Part shown: positions 1 to 14,036 of the stretch, piece by piece | How positions within the stretch are numbered: the first letter of the stretch is position 1 | How the letters are laid out: each line of letters starts with the position of its first letter | The notes under the pieces: generated by a model | Database searches by the model: none | What the model saw: the letters and a program-made list of their open reading frames with translations, nothing else | What the model was told of the DNA's origin: nothing | Position numbers and translations under genes: made by a program | NCBI GenBank assembly: GCA_041666845.1 | Contig: JBAYGC010000001.1 | Coordinates: 28,864-92,863, forward strand | Direction of reading: 5' to 3' | Origin: Patescibacteria group bacterium | Lineage (GTDB): Bacteria; Patescibacteriota; Patescibacteriia; UM-FILTER-42-10 | Length of the DNA: 64,000 nt

Positions 1-165
1 CTCCTTGCGAAGGAGGGGAGCAGAATATTTTACTATTTTAAAATCATGTTCCGGAGGGGTGGTAAAGAGCGCTATTGACCCCGCCAAGGCGGGGCGGGAC
101 TTGCTTCTAGTGGCATTTGATAATGTATAAACGCATCTGCTGATATTAGGCTACAGGCCTGACTA

Positions 166-194
166 TTGACAGCAATACCAGGCCATGCTATCAT
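166..194 (+). promoter_or_regulatory. Candidate sigma70-type promoter (TTGACA-17 nt-TATCAT) inside the 500-nt leader upstream of the first paralog
   Basis: ttgaca at 166-171, 17-nt spacer, tatcat at 189-194. Pattern match only. Confidence 0.25.
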
Positions 195-393
195 ACAATC
201 TCAAGTATTTAATGGTTTTATAGTAGCACTTCAGAAAGTAATACAGACACACAATAAATTGCGTGTTGTTGCGAAGATCAGGCATACAGAAACCAAAACA
301 GTATCAGTTTTTCTCGGAATGAGTTAATAGCGTTCATACATCCAACCCAAGTAATACAGCGGTTATCAGGATAGAAAACGTCACTCGTCGGAA

Positions 394-446
394 GTTAATT
401 GGGACCCTTTAAATGAGGGTTTTTTGATTTGTTAGGGATAAGGGCT
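394..446 (+). repeat. Copy A of a ~50-nt intergenic repeat (gttaattgggaccctttaaatgagggttttttgatttgttagggataagggct). It contains a 5-bp hairpin (accct/agggt) plus T-run.
   Basis: Near-identical to 2236-2294 and partially to 1361-1391. accct...agggt stem followed by tttttt at 421-426. Confidence 0.85.
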
Positions 447-504
447 CAAGAGTTATGGATTATATGGGGTTGATTTTAGTACTAAAATGTGATAAGATTG
501 TTGT

Positions 505-1356
505 ATGAATGAAGCAAAATCATTTGGGAATTTTGGGAATGTGCCGGAAACGCCGAAAGATTCAAATGCAGACAGCAATGAATCAGACATAGTTATTTCC
601 ATTGAGAAATTGAAGGAGATGAATGCAGATGGTAGTCTTGCACAGCTTGGTATTACTGCTGAATTTAATCCCGAAGATCCTCAGAGTATCGCCGAGATTA
701 GAAGGCAAATAGAAGAAAAGGTACAAGCTGAACTAAAAAAAGAACCTGCACCATGGCCGGGTTTAATGACGAGTTTAGGCAAGGACCATACTGCTAGAAA
801 TATGATGATTGGTTTAGGATTGTTTGGTTCAGGGATAGCTGCTATAGACGTTAAGCAAAATTATGAAGAAGATAAAAAGATTAAACAGGAGATCCTTAAC
901 GACGATTCAATTGATGTTTCTACGGAGACAGGCTATATTTATTCTTATGTAAGTGAGTGGAAGGCTAAACATCCGGAAATAACACATATTCAATTGGTTT
1001 CTATGCGTGCATTAAAGGGGAAAAATAACAACCCTGGCGTAAGCGTAGGAATGGGAGGTAAATTTGTTTTTGGGATGTCTATAAATGACGGCAGTTTCGA
1101 CGCTAACGAGATAACTTTATTAATAGGAAGAAAATCAGATTCTCCGGTCATGATTAGGCTAAAAGAGCTTGCAGGAAAAGTAATAAGTGACGAAGATGAA
1201 CAAGAAATGCGAGGGCAGGGGGCGGTAACAATTGAAGAAGATTGGCACGAGATTGGTCTGGGTGACGACGTACTCAATAGTACTATTAAACGTTCTTTGC
1301 TGACACAAGCATTGGATGTGTATGATGAAAAGTATCCATCGGAAACGTCTTCGTAA
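505..1356 (+). CDS. Hypothetical protein, paralog 1 of a tandem pair (283 aa). No recognisable domain; mid-protein hydrophobic Gly-rich segment.
   Basis: Complete ORF. About half of the residues are identical to the ORF at 1398-2231 along the full length (MNExKSF...LGxTAEFNPEDP...HIQL...ALDVYDxxYPSExSS). Weak SD. Confidence 0.7.
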   Translation: MNEAKSFGNFGNVPETPKDSNADSNESDIVISIEKLKEMNADGSLAQLGITAEFNPEDPQSIAEIRRQIEEKVQAELKKEPAPWPGLMTSLGKDHTARNMMIGLGLFGSGIAAIDVKQNYEEDKKIKQEILNDDSIDVSTETGYIYSYVSEWKAKHPEITHIQLVSMRALKGKNNNPGVSVGMGGKFVFGMSINDGSFDANEITLLIGRKSDSPVMIRLKELAGKVISDEDEQEMRGQGAVTIEEDWHEIGLGDDVLNSTIKRSLLTQALDVYDEKYPSETSS

Positions 1357-1360
1357 ATTA

Positions 1361-1391
1361 CCATAAGTTAATCGGGACCCTTTAAATGAGG
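1361..1391 (+). repeat. Copy B (truncated) of the intergenic repeat; the second half of the hairpin is replaced by the SD/start of the next gene
   Basis: ccataagttaatcgggaccctttaaatgagg, then taaaacATG. The agggt half-stem and T-run are lost, so there is probably no terminator between the paralogs. Confidence 0.8.
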
Positions 1392-1397
1392 TAAAAC

Positions 1398-2231
1398 ATG
1401 AATGAAGGAAAATCATTTGATAATAATAATGTTCCTGAAATACCGGAAGATTTGAATGCCGGTAGCAATGAGTCAGGAATAGCTGATACGTTAGAGAGGT
1501 TGAAGGCGATGAGCGCGGATGGCAGTCTCGCGAAGCTTGGTGTTACTGCAGAATTCAATCCTGAAGATCCGGAAAGCATAACGGAAGTAAGAAGTCAGTT
1601 GTCAGAATTGGCACAGAAGAAAATGCAAAAGGGAGTAAAGAGGTCATCCGGATTAATGACAAACATTGGTAGTGATCATACCATGAGAAATATGGGGATC
1701 GGGTTAAGTTTATTCATTTTGGGAAGTGGTGGTGTGGGTCTTAGAAATGCATATGAAGATTATAATAAAATCGAACAAGAGATGAATAGTGACGATTCGA
1801 TTGATGTCGGACGGGAATATAGCATGATATATGATTTAGTTAGTAAGTGGAAAGCAAAACGCCCGGAAGTGACACATATTCAGCTGGCGTCTGCGCGGGC
1901 GCTTAAAGGTAAGTTTAAAGATGGTGACGGAGGTGGGTACTTTGGAATTCAGGGAGATGATGACAGTAGTTTTAACGCATACGAAGTAAACATGATAATT
2001 GGAAGAAAATCCGACGCGCCGGTTGTTTTAAGAGTAAAAAGCGCTGAAGGGCAAGTTATTAGTGATGCGGAAGAAGAAGCGATGAGGCAACGTGGAGAAG
2101 TCAAAATTAAGGAAGAATGGCATGATGTCGACATTAATGGTGAGGAGTTTGGTTATATGCCGAAATATTATATGCTTATGCATGCGTTGGATGTGTATGA
2201 TAAGACTTATCCATCCGAACAGTCTTCGTAA
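1398..2231 (+). CDS. Hypothetical protein, paralog 2 of the tandem pair (277 aa)
   Basis: Complete ORF; GAGG SD 8 nt upstream; paralogous to 505-1356. Confidence 0.7.
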   Translation: MNEGKSFDNNNVPEIPEDLNAGSNESGIADTLERLKAMSADGSLAKLGVTAEFNPEDPESITEVRSQLSELAQKKMQKGVKRSSGLMTNIGSDHTMRNMGIGLSLFILGSGGVGLRNAYEDYNKIEQEMNSDDSIDVGREYSMIYDLVSKWKAKRPEVTHIQLASARALKGKFKDGDGGGYFGIQGDDDSSFNAYEVNMIIGRKSDAPVVLRVKSAEGQVISDAEEEAMRQRGEVKIKEEWHDVDINGEEFGYMPKYYMLMHALDVYDKTYPSEQSS

Positions 2232-2235
2232 GTTA

Positions 2236-2294
2236 CCATAAGTTAATTGGGACCCTTTAAATGAGGGTTTTTTGATTTGTTAGGGATAAGGGCT
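2236..2294 (+). repeat. Copy C (full length) of the intergenic repeat with hairpin plus T-run (likely intrinsic terminator of the paralog pair)
   Basis: Identical over ~50 nt to copy A; gaccctttaaatgagggtttttt at 2251-2274. Confidence 0.85.
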
Positions 2295-2335
2295 TTGGAG
2301 GTAGGGGTTGGGGTGCAGATTTTTTATCCTTCCAA

Positions 2336-2344
2336 TGCTATAAT
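2336..2344 (+). promoter_or_regulatory. Extended -10 promoter element (TGcTATAAT) within a conserved 23-nt motif ttatccttc[c/a]aatg[c/g]tataatg
   Basis: tgctataat at 2336-2344, 32 nt upstream of the helicase start. The same motif recurs at 3785-3808 (extended -10 at 3799-3807). Confidence 0.4.
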
Positions 2345-2375
2345 GCCTGCACTAAGATAAATATTAATAATCGTA

Positions 2376-3766: not shown

Positions 3767-3798
3767 CAATGGCGCGTGTTTTTTATTTATCCTTCAAA

Positions 3799-3807
3799 TG
3801 GTATAAT
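3799..3807 (+). promoter_or_regulatory. Extended -10 promoter element (TGgTATAAT), second copy of the conserved promoter motif
   Basis: tggtataat at 3799-3807; flanking sequence nearly identical to 2316-2344. Confidence 0.4.
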
Positions 3808-3849
3808 GATAATTAGCAAATTATTCTAATTAATATTAATATCAAAATT

Positions 3850-4425
3850 ATGAAAAGAAATGAAGCAGCCAGGGTGTTTGATGCCAGTGAAAAAGAAAGA
3901 AAATTAAAGGGTAGGGGCGAAAAACAGCCAATTTTTCCGGTAGAAGAACCGGAAGATACTGACATGCCACCTGCTGCTAAGATGACATCGTTGGAGGAAT
4001 TTGATCTTGCAGAAAGACAGCTTCAAGCTGAAGAAAAGCGACAGAAAGAATTGGCGGTTCTGCGGGCCAATATGGCTAATTTTATCAACGAAGCCGGTAC
4101 GACGCTGATTAATTTGGATAAGCCTGGTTCTGTGCCGGAGGATAATTTTGAAGACACTGAGGAAATGGGTCGGATTAATGAAATATTCGGAGTGATTGAA
4201 CAAAGCGGTCTCGACAGCGCAACAGTTGAACAACTGTTTGAAACGCTGGAGAATCTGATCATTGCTATAACTCCGGATCAGATTGACCAGGAGAAAATTG
4301 ACCAAATAATTGAAGTGATTGAAGCAAGTGAACTAGAACCCACCCGCAGGCAGGAATTAATCTTGGAACTGAAGAATATGATTGCAACAGCGGTAATGGA
4401 TATGGATGATGCTTCTATTGCATAG
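3850..4425 (+). CDS. Hypothetical acidic protein (191 aa, Glu/Asp-rich)
   Basis: Complete ORF, no recognisable domain. Confidence 0.55.
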   Translation: MKRNEAARVFDASEKERKLKGRGEKQPIFPVEEPEDTDMPPAAKMTSLEEFDLAERQLQAEEKRQKELAVLRANMANFINEAGTTLINLDKPGSVPEDNFEDTEEMGRINEIFGVIEQSGLDSATVEQLFETLENLIIAITPDQIDQEKIDQIIEVIEASELEPTRRQELILELKNMIATAVMDMDDASIA

Positions 4426-6982: not shown

Positions 6983-7012
6983 TTTCGGTTGCCTACAGGG
7001 TAGGCGAAGGTG

Positions 7013-7903
7013 CTATTCCAAACGCTCTTGGAGCGGATCGAAGTCCGAGTAGAGCGTGAACAGAAGATCGATCATGCCGGCTCCGAATTCCTCGTCGGAT
7101 GTGGCGCACTGTTCGATCATGAGCATGTTGGCGCTCACGATCATGTCGGTTGCATAGAACCCGGCGTCGAGCGGGGACTCAATCGAAACGCAGTTGCGGA
7201 TCAGGTCTTCGTCCGAGGGTACAGGGCCCATCGTGTAGGCGTAGGGTTCATTACTCTCCGCCATGATTCGCTGGCGCTGCTTTGCGCTTTCCTGCGCGGC
7301 TTCGAGCCACTTCCCATTGGTCATCTCGTTGATGACCATGAACACCGTGTGGTGTGCTTCGTATTCTTCGAAGAGCCACAGGTCGGAGAGCGGCTCCGCG
7401 ACGATTTCCCCGTCTTCATCGGTGCAGTCCCGGGCGTGGACGATTTCGTGTGCGAGACAGAGTCCGCGCACGAGCGGTCCGAACCCGCAGGTTGCCAGTA
7501 TCACCGAGCGCGATTCGCAGAAGAACTCTGCGAAAATCGCATCCTCTTCCCGAAGAAGCGGAATCGGATTCGGATTCGCTACGATGAAGAAGTCGAGCGG
7601 ACTGTCCAGCGGTTCCACCACCTCGAAGAGCCTGGAGTCGACGTACTTCGCACGCACGGCGTGCGCGTCGTAGAACTCGAGGAGTTCCTTGGCGGTTGCC
7701 GATAGCTCGGCGAGCGCTGCGAGATCATCCCGCGCCGTGTCGAGAATCTGGTTCTCGGCTTCGGTCAGCACGGGCAGGGCCAGTGCGGAGTAGGTGCTGT
7801 CTTCTTGGGACTGGGCGGGAACGCAATAAGCGAAGACACAGAACATGAGGGCCAGGAGCAGGTAGAGAGCGACCTTGTGCCGGGTACGCATGGGAGGTTC
7901 CAT
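7013..7903 (-). CDS. Secreted hypothetical protein with an HExxH motif (putative metallopeptidase-like); GC-rich foreign composition
   Basis: N-terminal signal/TM segment VALYLLLALMFCVFAYCVPAQSQ; AHEIVHARD motif. This is the most protein-like of the overlapping frames in the GC-rich block. Confidence 0.55.
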   Translation of the reverse strand: MEPPMRTRHKVALYLLLALMFCVFAYCVPAQSQEDSTYSALALPVLTEAENQILDTARDDLAALAELSATAKELLEFYDAHAVRAKYVDSRLFEVVEPLDSPLDFFIVANPNPIPLLREEDAIFAEFFCESRSVILATCGFGPLVRGLCLAHEIVHARDCTDEDGEIVAEPLSDLWLFEEYEAHHTVFMVINEMTNGKWLEAAQESAKQRQRIMAESNEPYAYTMGPVPSDEDLIRNCVSIESPLDAGFYATDMIVSANMLMIEQCATSDEEFGAGMIDLLFTLYSDFDPLQERLE

Positions 7904-8163
7904 CCTTTCGGGTCTTCCTGTTTTCGGTTGCCGTGTGAAATTGCACCTGACTGCGAGTTTCGTTCAGAAACCTGTAAATCTCCTTTCAAGCAGGAATTCT
8001 GACTATCCTATATAACATTATATTTAAATTTTGTCCAGACCCGAAAGCCGTTATTGCAAAAATTCATATTGGAATTAGCATATTTAGCTTGCAAAAAATT
8101 CCGGTTATGTTAGGGTGGCGATAGTTGTAAGTTGCCCGAAGTCTTCAAACGAGGACGGATGCC

Positions 8164-8385
8164 ATGAGCCATCGATTCACCCCAGCCCGCCTCAACGAGG
8201 TCCTGATTGCCGCCAACGCGTCGCGCCTATCGGATGCTGTCGAAGCGACCACGCTGTTGCGGGAATTCATGGACCGCGAGGATCTGATCGGCTCCGACGA
8301 CACTGAGAGTCACGTGCATGTGCCGGACTATCTGATCGGCGTCGTCGAGTTCAACTGGAGCGGGCATTCCCAGCCCGCCCACTAG
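8164..8385 (+). CDS. Small hypothetical protein (73 aa) in the GC-rich block
   Basis: Good SD (gagga, 7 nt before ATG); convergent terminators downstream. Confidence 0.4.
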   Translation: MSHRFTPARLNEVLIAANASRLSDAVEATTLLREFMDREDLIGSDDTESHVHVPDYLIGVVEFNWSGHSQPAH

Positions 8386-8391
8386 CCCTTT

Positions 8392-8446
8392 CCGCGGTTT
8401 TCCAAGACCGCGCCCGACTCTTTCCCAACCGGAAGAGTTTTTTATT
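8392..8446 (+). terminator. Terminator candidates (two short hairpins, T-run 8438-8446) after ORF 8164-8385
   Basis: ccgcggttttccaagaccgcg and ctctttcccaaccggaagag + tttttt. Confidence 0.4.
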
Positions 8447-8467
8447 TGATCAAGAGCCATATTAAAT

Positions 8468-8509
8468 AATAAAAAAATCGAGGGTGAGTCCGGATGGGCT
8501 CACTCTCGG
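8468..8509 (-). terminator. Intrinsic terminator for the minus-strand gene 8583-9152
   Basis: Hairpin cgagggtgagtcc...gggctcactctcg preceded by aaaaaaat on plus, i.e. followed by a T-run on minus. Confidence 0.5.
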
Positions 8510-8582
8510 TTGAAGGAATGATCAAAATGATGAAGAGCAGAAGGTGTGGTGCAGCATGAACGCGCGGGATCGCGGATCGGGA

Positions 8583-9152
8583 TCAGAGTTCGATGCGCTC
8601 AGTCGGAGCATCACCGCTCTGGTCGTCCGTGGCGGGGGCGGTCGCCTCCATGACCGGTTCGGTCTCGGCGCCAGCGACGGCCGGATCGTCGGCCGCGACA
8701 ACGGCCGGGTCCACCTCGGGGGCGGCGTCGATGTCCGCAGCGGCGGCCACGACGGGGTCCTCCACGCTGGCGGCAGCGAGCGGGGTCGCGTCCGTCCCTT
8801 CCTCGAGATCCGCGGGCTGGGGATCGTCGACGGTCGCGGCGGCCAGATGTTCGGCGGGAGCATCGTCCGTCTCCGCGGCGGAAGCCTCGTCCTCGTCCTC
8901 GGGCGCATCCTCCCAGGGCGCATCCTCGGGGATCAGCATCGTGCCGATCATCATGTCGTCTTCGGTGAGGAGGTCGTAGAGATCGACCTCGGTCACCGTC
9001 GGCTTCCCCTCGTTGGACAGGCCGAGGATCACGATCAGGTGCTGGTTCTCGTCGTACTGGATTCCCCGCGCCTTGAGAGCCTCCAGGACGGGAGTGCCTT
9101 CCTCCCCTTCGAACAGCGGATGAAGGCGGAGACAGGGTTTCGTTCTCGACAT
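8583..9152 (-). CDS. Hypothetical protein: ~75-aa N-terminal globular region followed by a long acidic Ala/Asp/Pro/Glu-rich low-complexity tail
   Basis: The AAGGAG SD sits 8 nt upstream of ATG 9152; the ORF-track start at 9161 is a GTG. The other frames over the same span (8544-9185 +, 8611-9183 -) are Arg/Gly-rich, typical of wrong frames in GC-rich DNA. Confidence 0.5.
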   Translation of the reverse strand: MSRTKPCLRLHPLFEGEEGTPVLEALKARGIQYDENQHLIVILGLSNEGKPTVTEVDLYDLLTEDDMMIGTMLIPEDAPWEDAPEDEDEASAAETDDAPAEHLAAATVDDPQPADLEEGTDATPLAAASVEDPVVAAAADIDAAPEVDPAVVAADDPAVAGAETEPVMEATAPATDDQSGDAPTERIEL

Positions 9153-10853: not shown

Positions 10854-12971
10854 CTAGTGCTGTTCGACCGGATTGTACGTGGTACTTTCCAGGCGAACGA
10901 CGGGGATGTCAGAATAGGCTGCCGGGATTTCGTAGCATCCCATCAGCTTCTCCATTGAGATCCAGCCGGTACACAAGATGGACTTGCCGGCGTCGCCAGT
11001 CCAGATGAGACGAATCTCCTGGACATTCTCAATGTCTGCTTCGCCGAAATCGATCATGAGGTACGCCGGACGCTGCGGGTACAGATCGGGAACCTGCCAG
11101 AAGCGGTGGGACCCGTCGGTGTAGATGAACTCCATGATCGTGTCCTCATGCTGCAGGACATCGAACTTGAAGAGTCCCCACATCCGCTGCCAAGCAGGAT
11201 GGCCGGTCGTCACGAACGCGCAGTCCGTGAGATCATTCGGCCCCACCTTGAAGTCGTTGATGTCGACTTCCCAACAGACGGTTTCCGGGTCCGAAGCGGA
11301 TCGGACACGGTTGTAGGTTTCACCCTGCTGTACTTCGCCGGTGACGTTGTCCATCACCTCGACGTAGAACAGGTGATTACCCGCGTACAGCCCCGGATAT
11401 TCGCAGACCGGCGTGGTCGCGAACGGGAATTGCTCGAGGTACCCCCACTTCACCGAGTTGTCACCGGAACCACCCTGGATGATGACCTGGAGGCTCGCGG
11501 TGACCGGCTCGATCTGGTCCTGCGGACTGCTGAAGACCTGAATGGTCATCGGCGGGTACAGGACGGCCTTCACACGGATGGCGACGTCGCCGTTCAGAAC
11601 GAGGCCGGTGACGTTGTCCGTCACCTGCACGTAGAACACGTGTACGCCGGCCATCAGACCCATGACTTCAGCAGTCGGAGTGGTGCCGATGACGTTGCCG
11701 TCGTAGGTCCACCTGTAGCTGAAGTTGCCGGATCCGTTCGTCACGACCACCCAAACCTGGCCGGTGACCGGTTCGGTCAGGTCCTGCGGTCCGCCGTTCG
11801 GAGCAATCGTCATCGGAATGATGGGATCGTCCTCGCGGGGCAGGGCGGTAACCGACACGCTCGCCTGAGCCGTATGGCCTTCGGCATCCATGACGGTAAT
11901 CGAGAAACAGCGGGTGCCGGCTTCGGAAAATCCGAGCCGGACGCTTTTCGTCGTGGCGACGACGTTGTTACCCTCGTGCCATGTGTAGGTGAAGGGGTAA
12001 ACGCCGCCGATGACATCGACGTCCAGCGTGCTGTCGAATGCAACCCTGATTCCGCTTGTCGAAGCCGTGGGATTGATGGTCAGCGGAATCGGCTCGCCGG
12101 TGTCCACGCAGACCGTCACGTCCTGGAAGGTGGAACCGTTGCCGGTGCCATCGTCCAAGAAAACGGTGAAAGTGTGCGTGCCATCGGGCAGGTTGGGGTA
12201 GGCGGCGAACAGGCTCTGCGAGAACATGGTGCCCTCGTAGAACCAGCGGTAACGGTAGTTCCCGTCGCCGCCGGACCCGTGTGCTTCGAGATAGGCCTTG
12301 TCGCCGATCGCGAAGCCGAAGGCATCCAACGTCAGTGCGGGAAGTTCGCCAGAAGCGCCGGCACAGATGGTACGGTTGATGGTAACCTCGTTGCCGTCGG
12401 CATCGGTAATCGTACCAGCCACCGGGTAGTTTCCGGGCAGTTCAGCCAGGAACGTGATGGTCGGCTCGGTGTACACCGTGCCGTTGACGACGATGTCGAA
12501 CGAGTAAGGCAGCTTGCCCCCCCAGCCAATGAGCGAGATCGACGCCTGGAAAGGCGCCGTCAGGCCGTTCGGCGTGACGATCATCATGCCTTGGAGCGGG
12601 CTGTCGGGTTCGACTGCCTGCTCGCTGGCCGTGATGGTCAGCTCGCGGGTGATCAGGGTGTCCGGATAGACGACCCTGAGTTCGAAGTCCCAGGAGCCGG
12701 GTTCGGGCGCCGTAAACACGGTGTCCGTACCGGTCGCGTAGAACTCGCCGTCCTTGTAGATTGTGGCACGGTCGGGCTTGCCGATCACGGTTCCCCACAA
12801 CGTGGCGGTTTCCACGTAAGGGAGAAACAGGTTGAGCGGCGAAGCGTTGAACGTCGCGCTGTACTCGGGAAGGATGGGGACCTGCGGTGTCACCAGATCA
12901 GCCTCGCTCTCGCAACCTGCGAGCACGAGACCGAGGGCTATTACCGCAAGCAATGCGGTGATTCTCTTCAT
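10854..12971 (-). CDS. Lipoprotein with four or five tandem PKD/Ig-like repeats and a C-terminal domain (cell-surface protein), GC-rich
   Basis: Signal peptide plus lipobox LVLAGC; ~90-aa repeats beginning P[LM]TI.P...G.Y.[FY].W; 705 aa. The antisense 722-aa ORF is rejected. Confidence 0.7.
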   Translation of the reverse strand: MKRITALLAVIALGLVLAGCESEADLVTPQVPILPEYSATFNASPLNLFLPYVETATLWGTVIGKPDRATIYKDGEFYATGTDTVFTAPEPGSWDFELRVVYPDTLITRELTITASEQAVEPDSPLQGMMIVTPNGLTAPFQASISLIGWGGKLPYSFDIVVNGTVYTEPTITFLAELPGNYPVAGTITDADGNEVTINRTICAGASGELPALTLDAFGFAIGDKAYLEAHGSGGDGNYRYRWFYEGTMFSQSLFAAYPNLPDGTHTFTVFLDDGTGNGSTFQDVTVCVDTGEPIPLTINPTASTSGIRVAFDSTLDVDVIGGVYPFTYTWHEGNNVVATTKSVRLGFSEAGTRCFSITVMDAEGHTAQASVSVTALPREDDPIIPMTIAPNGGPQDLTEPVTGQVWVVVTNGSGNFSYRWTYDGNVIGTTPTAEVMGLMAGVHVFYVQVTDNVTGLVLNGDVAIRVKAVLYPPMTIQVFSSPQDQIEPVTASLQVIIQGGSGDNSVKWGYLEQFPFATTPVCEYPGLYAGNHLFYVEVMDNVTGEVQQGETYNRVRSASDPETVCWEVDINDFKVGPNDLTDCAFVTTGHPAWQRMWGLFKFDVLQHEDTIMEFIYTDGSHRFWQVPDLYPQRPAYLMIDFGEADIENVQEIRLIWTGDAGKSILCTGWISMEKLMGCYEIPAAYSDIPVVRLESTTYNPVEQH

Positions 12972-12983
12972 CTTGTCGACCTC

Positions 12984-14036
12984 CTACAGACCGAAGTTGT
13001 AGTTGATGCCGGCGGCGATGGAAGGCTCGACCGAGCGATCCGTGCCGAGGCGATCGAAGAACATGAGACCGGGCGTGATGTAGCCCAGGACGTGTCCCTT
13101 GGTAATCGCGAAACCCCCGTAGAGGCCGTAGCCGTTCTGGAGGTACTCGCCGAACGTCTCCACGCATTCGGAAGCGTAGAGGATTCTTGCGGTCAGACCG
13201 AACCACGGTTTGTTGCCGTAGAAATGCATCGCGTTCAGGCTGAACAGCTTCTGTTCGACGGTTTGCTCGGCTGAGCCGAAGTGCTCAGAACCGAAGCTAC
13301 CGTAGCCGAGGGTACCGGAGATGAAGTTGCGCCCGCTCCGAATCCCGAAGGAAACAGACGGGACCAACGTAGGTTCACCACCTGATACGGCAGCCCATTC
13401 CGCTCCGAATCCGAGCATGTAACTCTTGTCGGACTTGGTCGGGCGAACACAGGGCGCCGGCCGTTCGATGATCCGTTCGGTGACGATGCGTTCGATCACG
13501 CGCTCCTGCGGTTTCGTGGCCAGCTTGTCCACGTAGATGTGGATGTAGCGGTCACCGACGCGCTGGGAGCGGATGTGGAAGTAGTCGATCGGGACCTTGA
13601 ACGGGTCCACGCCGACGTACACCAGCACCTGGTTGGCCGAAGCCTCCCGGGCGCCGTTCGTTCCGCCATCCCAGTCCAGGTTCTGAGCATCGAAGTCGAT
13701 GTCCTTGAACCGGGGGTCATCCTTGAAGATCTCGAGGATGCCGTACTTCGTGGGGTCCGTGCAACAGACCACCACGATGCGCTTGTTCCCGGCGCGGACG
13801 CTGTCGAGCTCAGCCCGGAACTCTTCGGTCACCAGCGGAAGAACCTCTTCCTTGGTCACCAAGTGTCCGGGCTTGCCCTTGCCCAGCTCGATGAAGATGC
13901 CGCGATCCCGGGGGATCACGGTGTGGTCAGGTTTCGCCCACACGACGCTCGACCCGAGGGTCAAGGCCAGCAGGACGACGAGAAACAGGGTATTTTTCCT
14001 CACTACACTCTCCTTCAGTTTTGCTGTCATATCCAT
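12984..14036 (-). CDS. Secreted protein with an N-terminal domain and a C-terminal outer-membrane beta-barrel-like domain, GC-rich
   Basis: Signal peptide LFLVVLLALTLGSSVVWA. The C-terminal ~170 aa shows alternating hydrophobic/Gly beta-strand pattern (LGFGAEW, SVSFGIRSG, TLGYGSFGS, GLYGGFAIT, GINYNFGL). Confidence 0.6.
   Translation of the reverse strand: MDMTAKLKESVVRKNTLFLVVLLALTLGSSVVWAKPDHTVIPRDRGIFIELGKGKPGHLVTKEEVLPLVTEEFRAELDSVRAGNKRIVVVCCTDPTKYGILEIFKDDPRFKDIDFDAQNLDWDGGTNGAREASANQVLVYVGVDPFKVPIDYFHIRSQRVGDRYIHIYVDKLATKPQERVIERIVTERIIERPAPCVRPTKSDKSYMLGFGAEWAAVSGGEPTLVPSVSFGIRSGRNFISGTLGYGSFGSEHFGSAEQTVEQKLFSLNAMHFYGNKPWFGLTARILYASECVETFGEYLQNGYGLYGGFAITKGHVLGYITPGLMFFDRLGTDRSVEPSIAAGINYNFGL

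What the first reader, a model, noticed from the sequence alone, without database searches (positions are those of the whole stretch)
394..2294. Tandem diverged paralogs bracketed by three copies of a near-identical ~50-nt hairpin repeat
Two adjacent genes (505-1356, 1398-2231) encode full-length paralogs that have diverged substantially (about half of residues identical by eye; several blocks differ completely, e.g. KNNNPGVSVGMGGKFVFGMS vs FKDGDGGGYFGIQGDD). The ~50-nt non-coding element that precedes, separates and follows them is almost base-for-base identical between copy A (394-446) and copy C (2236-2294). The middle copy (1361-1391) is cut exactly where the hairpin's second half-stem and T-run would be, and is fused to the SD/start of paralog 2. 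Strongly conserved flanks around fast-diverging coding sequence suggests the repeat is a functional RNA/DNA element kept homogeneous by selection or gene conversion, with the pair read through as one transcript. It could be a terminator/attenuator, an RNA processing site or a recombination site. The paralog family has no recognisable domain. Both copies have a central Gly/hydrophobic segment and a conserved C-terminal ALDVYDxxYPSExSS.
Basis: seen in the sequence. Interest (0 to 1): 0.55.

Follow-up and report, generated by a model that had tools for sequence, protein, structure and literature searches.

The report
ncRNA terminator copied around orphan paralogs
The repeated hairpin is the terminator end of an unannotated, strongly conserved small RNA gene of a Patescibacteria lineage, and copies of that end bracket a lineage-specific insertion of two orphan paralogous genes; the new RNA and its use as an insertion point are the interesting parts, and the rest is ordinary.

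Summary
The paralogs at 505-1356 and 1398-2231 are 51% identical. Copy A (392-446) and copy C (2240-2294) match at 55/55 bases. Copy B (1365-1391) is a 27-nt 5' piece.

It is the 3' hairpin and U-run of a roughly 225-nt non-coding RNA gene (promoter 166-194, RNA about 201-425). This gene is conserved in five related Patescibacteria lineages, none of which has the paralogs. Between the window and its closest relative the RNA is 95.7% identical, while synonymous sites differ at 54-58%. It matches no Rfam 15 family.

The paralogs are orphans: nothing credible was found among 1.84 billion representative proteins. They evolve under purifying selection (pN 0.28, pS 0.73). They sit in the variable interval upstream of a PIF1 helicase, where relatives carry restriction and Gabija genes.

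My reading is that a 1.8-kb two-gene insertion lies behind the RNA gene, bracketed by a duplication of the RNA's last 35 nt plus 20 nt of spacer. A terminates the RNA and C terminates the paralog operon. B cannot fold, so a leaderless promoter at 470-498 reads through both genes.

How the duplication arose is unresolved: recombination at the RNA's 3' end, or an old tandem duplication kept uniform by gene conversion. Protein function is unknown.

The parts
166..194 (+). Promoter of the non-coding RNA gene: TTGACA, 17 nt, TG-n-TATCAT
   Evidence: It matches 11 of 12 consensus positions and has an extended -10. The same promoter sits at the 5' edge of the conserved block in L002, L012, L014 and L020. 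Similarity to L002 starts abruptly at about position 163.
201..425 (+). Unannotated conserved non-coding RNA of about 225 nt. The ends are inferred from the promoter and the U-run.
   Evidence: Homologues occur in five lineages (nhmmer E 1e-61 to 1e-72). It is 95.7% identical to L002, while synonymous sites of the flanking genes differ at 54-58%. There is no conserved ORF, and indels of 1, 2 and 4 nt occur between lineages. No Rfam 15 family matches, even at E<=10. Covariation is weak but present.
392..446 (+). Repeat copy A. It consists of the 3' strand of an RNA helix (AAGTTAATTG), the terminator hairpin 401-420, the U-run 420-425, and a 20-nt downstream tail.
   Evidence: It is identical to 2240-2294. 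The scan finds a terminator-like site at 401-423. The part up to GATT is invariant in all five RNA homologues. The tail from 432 onward is not conserved.
470..498 (+). Predicted promoter of the paralog operon: TTGATT, 17 nt, TG-a-TAAGAT, then 6 nt to ATG 505. This would give a leaderless mRNA.
   Evidence: The same design, TTGATT-N17-TAnGAT-N6-ATG, precedes the first gene after the RNA in L012, L014 and L020, and precedes DpnI in L020. The window has 2 such sites against 0.1 in shuffles. This is inferred and not shown experimentally. It falls below the generic sigma-70 scan threshold.
505..1356 (+). Paralog 1, an orphan protein of 283 aa
   Evidence: ATG 505 is supported as the start because the N-terminus is conserved with paralog 2. 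The NCBI record is MFA6272041.1, 'hypothetical protein'.
1365..1391 (+). Repeat copy B, the truncated 5' part of the module. It lacks most of the descending stem, the U-run and the tail.
   Evidence: It matches copy A at 26/27. It has no stable fold. It lies 8 nt after the stop of paralog 1 and 6 nt before the start of paralog 2.
1398..2231 (+). Paralog 2, an orphan protein of 277 aa
   Evidence: Against paralog 1, pN is 0.28 and pS is 0.73. The NCBI record is MFA6272042.1.
2240..2294 (+). Repeat copy C, the complete module. It is the terminator of the paralog operon, and its right-hand flank continues into the native spacer before the PIF1 promoter.
   Evidence: It matches copy A at 55/55. 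The scan finds a terminator-like site at 2249-2271. Region 2240-2314 aligns with the RNA's 3' end plus downstream spacer of L002 (81% over 81 nt; 15/21 against 11/21 for copy A's flank).
2336..2344 (+). Extended -10 (TGCTATAAT) of the PIF1 helicase promoter, where synteny with relatives resumes
   Evidence: The alignment with L002 resumes at about 2316. PIF1 at 2376-3701 hits PF05970 at 3e-39.

Best explanation
The three 'repeats' are copies of the 3' terminal module of a non-coding RNA gene that lies immediately upstream.

That gene is unannotated and under strong purifying selection. Its promoter is at 166-194 and the RNA runs from about 201 to 425.

Copy A is the RNA's own last helix strand plus its Rho-independent terminator.

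The two orphan paralogs form a lineage-specific segment of about 1.8 kb (447-2239). It is inserted directly behind this RNA gene, in a variable interval upstream of a PIF1 helicase that holds defence genes in relatives.

The segment is bracketed by a perfect 55-nt direct repeat. The repeat covers the last 35 nt of the RNA gene plus 20 nt of spacer. Copy C therefore terminates the paralog transcript and restores the native junction to the PIF1 promoter.

Copy B is a beheaded copy that cannot form the terminator. Transcription from a leaderless promoter at 470-498 therefore runs through paralog 1 into paralog 2, making one operon.

The identity of A and C reflects selection on the RNA's end together with a young duplication, most likely made by recombination at the RNA gene's 3' end. 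It does not reflect a function tied to the paralogs.

Shown: the anatomy, the conservation of the RNA, the absence of the paralogs elsewhere, and the relative dating.

Inferred: termination and read-through, the promoter, and the way the duplication arose.
For: Copy A belongs to the RNA gene:
- The block from the promoter to the U-run is conserved in L002 (94-96%), L020 (79%), L014 (76%) and L012 (75%). All of them lack the paralogs.
- The hairpin and AAGTWAATTG never vary across these lineages.

The RNA is under selection:
- 220 of 230 positions are identical to L002, while third codon positions of PIF1 and the DEAD helicase are only 61-63% identical.

The paralogs are an insertion:
- Synteny with L002 breaks right after the terminator and resumes at the PIF1 promoter.
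- The flank of copy C, not that of copy A, continues like the L002 spacer.
- The paralogs have no homologue in any related locus. Among 1.84 billion representative proteins only spurious hits to repeat proteins appear.

The duplication is young:
- A and C are identical over the 20-nt tail, which differs between lineages.
- B and C carry the window/L002-specific variants of the module.

Function of the copies:
- A and C have terminator form, and B is unfolded.
- The promoter design recurs at annotated starts in relatives.

The genes are real:
- pN 0.28 is far below pS 0.73.
- The locus is identical in a second assembly.
Against: - There are no transcript data, so the RNA's ends, termination at A and C, and read-through at B are all predictions.
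- The hairpin is short and weak (5 G-C/A-U core pairs extended by G-U pairs).
- No recombinase lies within 10 kb on either side.
- No empty site (RNA followed directly by spacer and PIF1) was seen in any genome.
- B is as well conserved as A and C even though it cannot terminate. A single insertion of a ready-made gene pair does not explain this without extra steps: serial insertions, gene conversion, or selection on B.
- The paralogs' divergence (pS 0.73) looks older than the window-L002 split (pS 0.54-0.58). An origin in place followed by loss in L002 therefore remains possible.
- Structural support for the RNA rests on five sequences and four covarying pairs.
Confidence: 0.62

Rival explanations
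1. Old tandem duplication in place, kept uniform by concerted evolution. An ancestral gene that already carried this terminator duplicated behind the RNA gene long ago. Gene conversion among the three nearby copies, with the selected copy A as master, keeps them alike while the coding parts drift. L002 and the other relatives later lost the pair.
For: - Paralog divergence is saturated (pS 0.73) and exceeds the window-L002 divergence.
- B and C share the gene-side junction TAA-(a/g)TTACCAT, and the 3' ends of the genes are more alike than the rest (83% over 104 nt).
- B is conserved although it cannot act as a terminator.
- The interval turns over quickly in relatives, so loss would be easy.
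Against: - Four related lineages would each have had to lose the pair, or the pair arose after their split, which conflicts with its saturated divergence.
- Conversion between tracts of 27-55 nt is inefficient.
- The identity block has razor-sharp edges, and the 20-nt unselected tail is perfect.
- No homologue of the proteins exists anywhere else.
Confidence: 0.25
2. The module is a functional tag of the transcripts themselves. A protein or RNase would recognise the same 3' sequence (AAGUUAAUYGGGACCCUUUAAAUGAGG) on the non-coding RNA and on both paralog messages, for processing, stability or localisation. Selection on that recognition, not on termination, would keep all three copies. This is.
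For: - B keeps 26/27 of the sequence although it cannot fold or terminate.
- The duplicated part starts inside an RNA helix strand, not at the hairpin foot.
Against: - It does not explain why A and C are also identical over the 20-nt tail beyond the U-run, which other lineages do not conserve.
- No other gene in 73 kb carries the tag.
- There is no antisense complementarity between the RNA and the paralog message above shuffled controls.
- It cannot be tested with sequence alone.
Confidence: 0.1
3. The conserved block is a cis-acting leader (riboswitch or attenuator), not a free-standing RNA. Copy A would be its regulated terminator, controlling whatever gene follows, here the paralogs.
For: - In all five lineages a gene on the same strand follows within 35-200 nt.
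- In three of the five, DUF2196 is the first or second gene downstream.
Against: - The first downstream gene differs between lineages: the orphan paralogs, an unrelated 196-aa ORF, DUF2196 in two lineages, and a Cdd1-like gene.
- In the window and in L002, DUF2196 lies upstream of the block.
- The downstream genes have their own leaderless promoter. In L012 and L014 its -35 box lies just after the U-run.
- No riboswitch family matches.
Confidence: 0.06
4. The hairpin is a dispersed intergenic repeat (REP, BIME or MITE-like), or an integron attC site, that happens to sit here three times.
For: - These genomes do carry dispersed small palindromic elements.
- A related hairpin with the same flanks but another stem exists in L002.
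Against: - There are only three copies in 73 kb of this contig.
- There is one further copy among single genomes of 185,579 species, and it is the RNA gene's own end.
- There are none in viral contigs.
- The relaxed flank pattern found only chance matches in metagenomes, apart from the L002 contig itself.
- The flank boxes do not fit the attC core sites RYYYAAC and GTTRRRY by my reading of the sequence.
- No integrase lies within 10 kb.
Confidence: 0.02

Closest known systems
Genomic islands and prophages integrated at the 3' ends of tRNA or tmRNA genes (attL/attR direct repeats)
   Same: A direct repeat made of the last part of a structured RNA gene plus a little downstream DNA brackets a strain-specific insert. 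The RNA gene stays intact. Relatives have other content at the same place.
   Different: The target is a new, unclassified RNA, not a tRNA or tmRNA. The insert is only 1.8 kb and encodes no integrase, and none lies within 10 kb. A third, truncated copy lies inside the insert. No empty site or circular form has been seen.
Rho-independent (intrinsic) terminators, including terminators lost between tandem genes to make an operon
   Same: A and C are stem-loops followed by a U-run at the ends of transcription units. B lacks exactly the parts needed for termination.
   Different: The duplicated unit is longer than a terminator. It includes 9 nt of an upstream RNA helix strand and 20 nt of downstream spacer. 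It is therefore a copied piece of a gene end, not an independently evolved terminator.
Integron gene cassettes with attC sites
   Same: Promoter-poor genes each followed by a hairpin-forming repeat, arranged in tandem in a variable region.
   Different: There is no intI integrase, attI site or Pc promoter. The flank boxes do not fit the attC core sites. The repeats are near-identical, whereas attC sites vary, and the first copy belongs to an RNA gene.
IS200/IS605-type elements and their palindrome-associated derivatives
   Same: Two near-identical hairpins in direct orientation flank cargo. TTAC lies 5' of copies B and C. A Y1 transposase gene occurs in one related locus (L014).
   Different: Copy A lacks TTAC and is conserved in genomes without the cargo. 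There is no TnpA or TnpB in or near the unit. The identity extends well beyond the hairpins.
Lineage-specific tandem paralog pairs of orphan genes in defence or variable islands
   Same: Two adjacent, diverged, co-oriented paralogs with no homologues occupy a slot that holds restriction-modification and Gabija genes in relatives.
   Different: There is no match to any PADLOC model and no recognisable fold, so a defence role is only guilt by association.

Membership tests
Rho-independent terminator | Stable G+C-containing stem-loop directly followed by a U-run | tested here: met
   A (401-425) and C (2249-2273) have 9 pairs, 3 of them G-C, a loop of 5, then six T. The energy is -9.4 kcal/mol, or -12.2 with the flanks, z = -2.2 and -3.0. 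B fails: it has no stem and no U-run.
Rho-independent terminator | Transcript 3' ends map to the U-run | not testable with these tools
   No transcript data are available for these metagenome-assembled genomes.
Dispersed intergenic repeats (REP/BIME/MITE) | Many copies scattered over unrelated intergenic regions of the genome | tested here: not met
   There are three copies, all at this locus, in the window plus 9.4 kb upstream. The 12-nt flank with one mismatch gives 2 further hits against 0.84 expected. One further exact copy exists among single genomes of 185,579 species, and it is the orthologous RNA end. The remaining ~107 kb of the 180-kb contig, and the rest of the genome beyond it, were not seen.
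Integron cassette / attC | intI tyrosine recombinase with attI next to the array | tested here: not met
   No recombinase family appears among the precomputed Pfam hits for genes within 10 kb on either side.
Integron cassette / attC | attC core sites R'' (RYYYAAC) and R' (GTTRRRY) flanking an imperfect palindrome | tested here: not met
   I read this directly from the sequence. The boxes are AAGTTAA and TTGATTT. GTTAATT breaks GTTRRRY at position 6, and the bottom-strand box AAATCAA does not fit RYYYAAC.
Island integrated at the 3' end of an RNA gene (att duplication) | The direct repeat equals the 3' part of the RNA gene, and the gene stays intact | tested here: met
   A equals C at 55/55. 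The repeat covers the last 35 nt of the conserved RNA plus 20 nt downstream.
Island integrated at the 3' end of an RNA gene (att duplication) | Integrase gene at one edge of the insert | tested here: not met
   The insert holds only the two orphan ORFs, which hit no Pfam, NCBIfam, PHROG or PADLOC family.
Island integrated at the 3' end of an RNA gene (att duplication) | The insert is absent, and the site otherwise conserved, in close relatives | tested here: inconclusive
   The paralogs are absent from all four other lineages that carry the RNA. Each of those has different DNA after the RNA, and no plain empty site was found.
IS200/IS605-type element | Y1 transposase (TnpA) and/or TnpB, with insertion 3' of a fixed tetranucleotide | tested here: inconclusive
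   TTAC precedes B and C but not A. There is no Y1_Tnp within 10 kb here. One occurs in L014, 5 kb away from the RNA.
Any described RNA family (Rfam 15) | Covariance-model match | tested here: not met
   No match at gathering score in the window. No match at E<=10 for the RNA region in the window or in L012. In L020 only a chance hit appears, at E=3.8.
Structured non-coding RNA gene (generic) | Own promoter and terminator, no ORF, conservation above the neutral level, compensatory changes in helices | tested here: met
   The promoter is conserved in all five lineages. Indels are not multiples of three and no ORF is conserved. Identity is 95.7% against 61-63% at third codon positions. Covariation is weak: 4 pairs changed on both sides against 1.8 in shuffles, and the covariation score is 0.102 against 0.079, reached by 0 of 500 shuffles, with only five sequences.
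Tandem gene duplicates under selection | Full-length collinear similarity with pN well below pS | tested here: met
   51% identity over the full length. pN 0.279, pS 0.725, dN 0.35, with dS saturated.

The most novel reading that the evidence does not exclude
The roughly 225-nt RNA is a new class of conserved structured RNA in a Patescibacteria clade. Its 3' end serves as the attachment point for small gene cassettes that carry no integrase. Each cassette would bring a copy of the RNA's terminal module, and recombination would occur in or next to the hairpin. Supporting this, half-hairpins also sit between co-oriented cassette genes in relatives. The orphan paralog pair would be cargo of such a cassette in a defence hot spot, possibly an undescribed defence or counter-defence pair.
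Probability: 0.1. Interest if true: 0.75.

Novelty: new variant of a known kind. Interest (0 to 1): 0.45.

Why it matters
Three things would follow if this holds.

First, it adds an unannotated RNA gene under very strong selection to the small, poorly understood RNA repertoire of Patescibacteria. The gene has clear boundaries and five homologues to start a covariance model from.

Second, it shows an RNA gene other than a tRNA or tmRNA whose 3' end is duplicated around strain-specific DNA. This gives a concrete locus for testing how integrase-less cassettes enter reduced genomes.

Third, it flags a pair of true orphan genes, under purifying selection, in a slot where relatives keep restriction and Gabija systems.

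Tried and rejected
1. Dispersed repeat. Exact and relaxed pattern scans of the window, the upstream 9.4 kb, the species genomes and the viral contigs found no further copies beyond the orthologous RNA end.

2. My metagenome scan was badly designed. The pattern required seven T/Y before GATT, but the element has six, so it could not match the element itself.

3. Homology between the RNA and the genes' 3' ends upstream of the repeat (AAACGTC...TCGT) is not significant (p 0.06-0.9).

5. Membrane protein. The central segment is too weakly hydrophobic.

6. Antisense pairing between the RNA and the paralog message. The longest complementary run is 15, against a mean of 13.4 and a maximum of 19 in shuffles. 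The low duplexfold energy came from unrealistic gapped duplexes.

7. Known RNA classes (6S, RNase P, SRP, tmRNA, riboswitches). There are no Rfam or ARAGORN hits, and my reading of the fold does not fit them.

8. Integron attC and IS200/605. See the membership tests.

9. Literature searches for such an RNA in Patescibacteria found nothing relevant.
Full report
**Observation**

- ORFs 505-1356 and 1398-2231 encode collinear proteins of 283 and 277 aa. They are 51% identical (E=4e-95; alignment).
- The repeat copies are A = 392-446 and C = 2240-2294. They match at 55/55 bases, and identity drops sharply on both sides, to 6/15 before and 9/15 after.
- B = 1365-1391 matches the first 27 nt at 26/27. 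It stops inside the descending stem, 6 nt before the ATG of paralog 2.
- A 24-mer of the repeat occurs three times, against none in 100 shuffles.
- A second, independent assembly (JGI 3300037810, also in NCBI; L011) carries the RNA-paralog-PIF1 region base for base. Assembly artefacts are therefore excluded.

**The genes are real orphans**

- Between the paralogs, pN is 0.279 and pS is 0.725 (dN 0.35, dS saturated). Third-position identity is 47% and overall nucleotide identity is 63%. Both copies are therefore maintained by purifying selection and diverged long ago.
- Neither matches Pfam, NCBIfam, PHROGs or PADLOC.
- The word-indexed search of 5.8 billion clusters returned only the protein itself.
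- The exhaustive HMMER scan of 1.84 billion representatives returned the protein itself plus three long tandem-repeat proteins (Big_9/cadherin, an unclassified repeat protein, MucBP). Their scores are sums of many weak repeat matches.
- Both proteins exist in NCBI only as 'hypothetical protein WC693_02935/02940' of a Patescibacteria MAG.
- tblastn against all related loci and a viral-contig scan found nothing.
- Structure prediction is limited by a two-sequence alignment (pLDDT 56 for the full length; 69 for the C-terminal 153 aa). The C-terminal domain is an alpha/beta sandwich whose best PDB matches (LptE, E>=0.013, TM<=0.40) are not significant.
- The central Gly-rich segment is too weakly hydrophobic for a confident membrane helix.
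- Protein function therefore stays unknown.

**Copy A belongs to a conserved RNA gene**

This is the key result.
- Scanning one genome for each of 185,579 species for the repeat found a single further copy. It lies in another Patescibacteria MAG (JBAYGW010000004.1, L002).
- In L002, window 163-431 is conserved as one block, and the paralogs are absent.
- The block starts exactly at a near-consensus promoter (TTGACA-17-TGcTATCAT, 11/12, window 166-194). It ends just after the hairpin and U-run.
- I fetched relatives through the neighbouring PIF1 and DEAD-box helicases. This gave three more lineages with the same block: L012, L014 and L020/L021 (nhmmer E 1e-61 to 1e-72).
- All five keep the promoter and the 3' module AAGTWAATTGGGACCCTT-loop-AAGGGTTTTTTGATT.
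- The block has no conserved ORF, and the lineages differ by indels of 1, 2 and 4 nt.
- Between the window and L002 it is 95.7% identical over 230 nt. Synonymous sites of the flanking PIF1 and DEAD genes differ at 54-58%, and their third positions are 61-63% identical. The binomial probability of that identity under neutrality is about 1e-33.
- It matches no Rfam 15 family at gathering score or at E<=10. ARAGORN finds no tRNA or tmRNA.
- A consensus fold has two domains followed by the terminal hairpin. Covariation support is modest: 4 pairs changed on both sides against 1.8 in shuffles, and the covariation score is 0.102 against 0.079 with 0 of 500 shuffles reaching it, from five sequences.
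- I conclude that 166-425 is an unannotated, selected, free-standing non-coding RNA gene of about 225 nt. I could not identify its class.

**What exactly is duplicated**

- In the consensus fold, AAGUUAAUUG (392-401) is the 3' strand of an invariant helix with CAGUUUUUC (about 305-313). The hairpin 401-420 and U-run 420-425 follow.
- The A/C repeat therefore covers the last 35 nt of the RNA gene plus 20 nt of downstream spacer (GATTTGTTAGGGATAAGGGCT).
- That spacer is not conserved between lineages beyond GATT, yet it matches 20/20 between A and C.
- At the neutral divergence seen between the window and L002, such identity would be unlikely (about 7e-5). The A/C duplication, or the last conversion between them, is therefore young.
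- B and C also carry the variants specific to the window/L002 lineage: AAGTTAAT and the loop TTTAAATGA. The other three lineages have AAGTAAAT and other loops. B and C therefore derive from this lineage's own RNA end.
- B and C match at 36/38 including the gene-side junction TTACCAT, against 47% identity at the paralogs' silent positions (p about 2e-10).

**The paralogs are an insertion**

- Synteny with L002 ends right after the terminator and resumes at the PIF1 promoter at about 2316.
- The right flank of C (2295-2314) resembles the spacer that follows the RNA in L002 more than the right flank of A does: 15/21 against 11/21, and 81% over 81 nt for C plus its flank. This evidence is weak but points one way: C and its flank are the native continuation, and 447-2239 is the inserted DNA.
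- The interval between the DEAD helicase and PIF1 is highly variable.
  - In L024 and L025 the two helicase genes are adjacent.
  - Elsewhere the interval holds DUF2196, zinc-finger and M15 peptidase genes.
  - Just upstream of PIF1 it holds DpnI plus a Schlafen/AlbA_2 protein (L015, L020), an MvaI/BcnI restriction-modification pair (L021), or GajA/GajB (L018; E 1e-217 and 1e-186).
- The orphan pair thus occupies a slot used by defence genes in relatives. That is only circumstantial evidence for its role.

**Transcription architecture (inferred)**

- A and C have terminator form: -9.4 kcal/mol for the core, -12.2 with the flanking AAGUUAA/UUGAUUU pairs, then six U.
- B has no stable fold, and only 6 nt separate it from ATG 1398. 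Paralog 2 must therefore be co-transcribed with paralog 1.
- Upstream of paralog 1, the motif TTGATT (470-475)-17-TGaTAAGAT (490-498)-6-ATG predicts a leaderless message.
- The same design precedes the first gene after the RNA in L012 and L014 (TACGAT) and in L020 (TAGGAT), and precedes DpnI in L020. The window has 2 such sites against 0.1 in shuffles.
- The genome hardly uses Shine-Dalgarno sequences: 7 of 57 genes, mostly weak matches. The GAGG before paralog 2 is therefore best seen as the leftover of the hairpin's descending stem, not as a selected ribosome-binding site. A role as one cannot be excluded.

**How the duplication arose**

The anatomy is that of an insert bracketed by a copy of an RNA gene's 3' end. 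This is the pattern left by elements that integrate into tRNA and tmRNA genes.

I favour recombination at the RNA gene's end, possibly more than once, followed by a deletion that beheaded the middle copy and fused the genes into an operon.
- This explains why all three copies look young while the genes look old.
- It explains why the pair is unique to this lineage.
- It explains why A and C are identical even where nothing is selected.

Against this view:
- No recombinase lies within 10 kb.
- No empty site or mobile copy was found.
- Viral contigs hold neither the module nor the proteins.

The main rival is an old tandem duplication in place, homogenised by gene conversion with the selected copy A as template, followed by loss in relatives. 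I cannot separate the two with sequence alone. A selected 'tag' function shared by the RNA and the messages remains possible for B, but it does not explain the identical tail.

One further hint suggests that hairpins are break or recombination points in this region. L002 has a second element with the same flanks but another stem: AGTTAATCGGGA-ACCGCC...GGCGGT-TTTCTTGATT. Its 3' half alone follows the DpnI stop codon in L020 and L015.

**Comparison with known systems**

- It works like an intrinsic terminator reused by duplication, and it looks like an att duplication at an RNA gene.
- It is not a REP or MITE-type repeat (copy number).
- It is not an integron, having neither an integrase nor attC core sites.
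- It is not a recognisable IS200/605 element.
- The RNA is not a member of any Rfam family.
- I rate it a new variant of a known kind. The duplication of a gene end around an insertion is familiar, but the RNA target is new and the cargo is orphan.

**Limits**

- All functional statements rest on sequence.
- Only about 73 kb of this genome was visible.
- The single metagenome scan was wasted on a pattern that could not match the element, so the RNA's true distribution is unknown.
- The five homologues come from one narrow clade.

Noticed in passing
window 72-170: CTATTGAC occurs at 72-79 and again at 163-170, the latter within the -35 region of the RNA promoter. The 83 nt between them, which include a G+C-rich hairpin at 80-98, are absent at the equivalent place in L020 and L002, where the upstream repeat block abuts the promoter. 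It looks like a small insertion with an 8-nt target duplication that rebuilt the -35 box.
   Followed up: partly
L001 9322-9404 (just upstream of the window); L002 3841-3923; L020 9441-9525, 11608-11706, 11959-12003, 12909-12941; L015 815-847; L012 8607-8636: A dispersed palindromic element of about 85 nt (CTGTCATCTTCGGAC...GTCCGAGAATGACA) recurs in intergenic regions of this clade and looks MITE-like. A second dispersed element (ACAGCACCCATTGCGAGG...) occurs at L002 4242-4307, at L020 9323-9388, 12993-13050 and 15779-15839, and in L015.
   Followed up: partly
L002 4346-4385; L020 14089-14109; L015 1995-2015: L002 has a hairpin with the same flanks as the module but a different, stronger stem: AGTTAATCGGGA-ACCGCC-TAAAAA-GGCGGT-TTTCTTGATT, -17 kcal/mol. 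In L020 and L015 only its 3' half follows the DpnI stop codon, ahead of a co-oriented gene. Half-hairpins between cassette genes therefore recur.
   Followed up: partly
L018 2755-6142; L015 1225-3541; L020 13319-15635; L021 13208-16021: The slot just upstream of the PIF1 helicase holds defence systems in relatives. These are GajA/GajB (Gabija) in L018, methyl-directed DpnI plus a Schlafen/AlbA_2 protein in L015 and L020, and an MvaI/BcnI-type restriction-modification pair in L021.
   Followed up: yes
L024 4744-7282; L025 2189-4727: In more distant relatives the DEAD-box helicase and PIF1 genes are directly adjacent, and the RNA is absent from the sequence held for these loci. The interval that holds the RNA, DUF2196 and the variable genes thus looks like an expansion specific to the window's clade.
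   Followed up: partly
window, all genes: Only 7 of 57 long ORFs have any Shine-Dalgarno-like motif. Many starts lie a few bases after a -10-like box, which suggests widespread leaderless or short-leader messages. TTGATT-N17-TAnGAT-N6-ATG is a recurrent design.
   Followed up: partly
window 2280-2316; L002 4205-4240: The spacer after the RNA gene is G-rich, with TTAGGG-like repeats (GGGATAAGGGCTTTGGAGGTAGGGGTTGGGG in the window; GGGGTTAGGGTTTAGGATATAGGGATTAGGG in L002). It could form a G-quadruplex. It is not conserved in L012, L014 or L020.
   Followed up: no
window 2320-2345 and 3783-3808: Two promoter regions are 88% identical over 26 nt (TTWTTTATCCTTCMAATGSTATAATG). One lies before PIF1 and the other before the acidic 191-aa ORF at 3850-4425. 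That ORF has no family match and contains an internal 41-nt repeat at 4174-4214 and 4297-4337.
   Followed up: no
window 7000-9000 and 11000-14000: There are G+C-rich islands (58-68%, against about 40% elsewhere) with long ORFs on both strands, for example 10854-12971 (-) and 11106-13274 (+). The gene caller chose the + strand, but only the - strand product has Pfam hits, and those are weak PKD/Ig-like matches. None of the other ORFs here has a family match.
   Followed up: partly
L016/L017 11394-13013; L018 18-1511: PIF1 homologues about 61% identical to the window's PIF1 lie next to large serine recombinases in other Patescibacteria contigs. One of these contigs comes from the same sample as the window. 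This PIF1 family therefore also travels on integrative elements.
   Followed up: no
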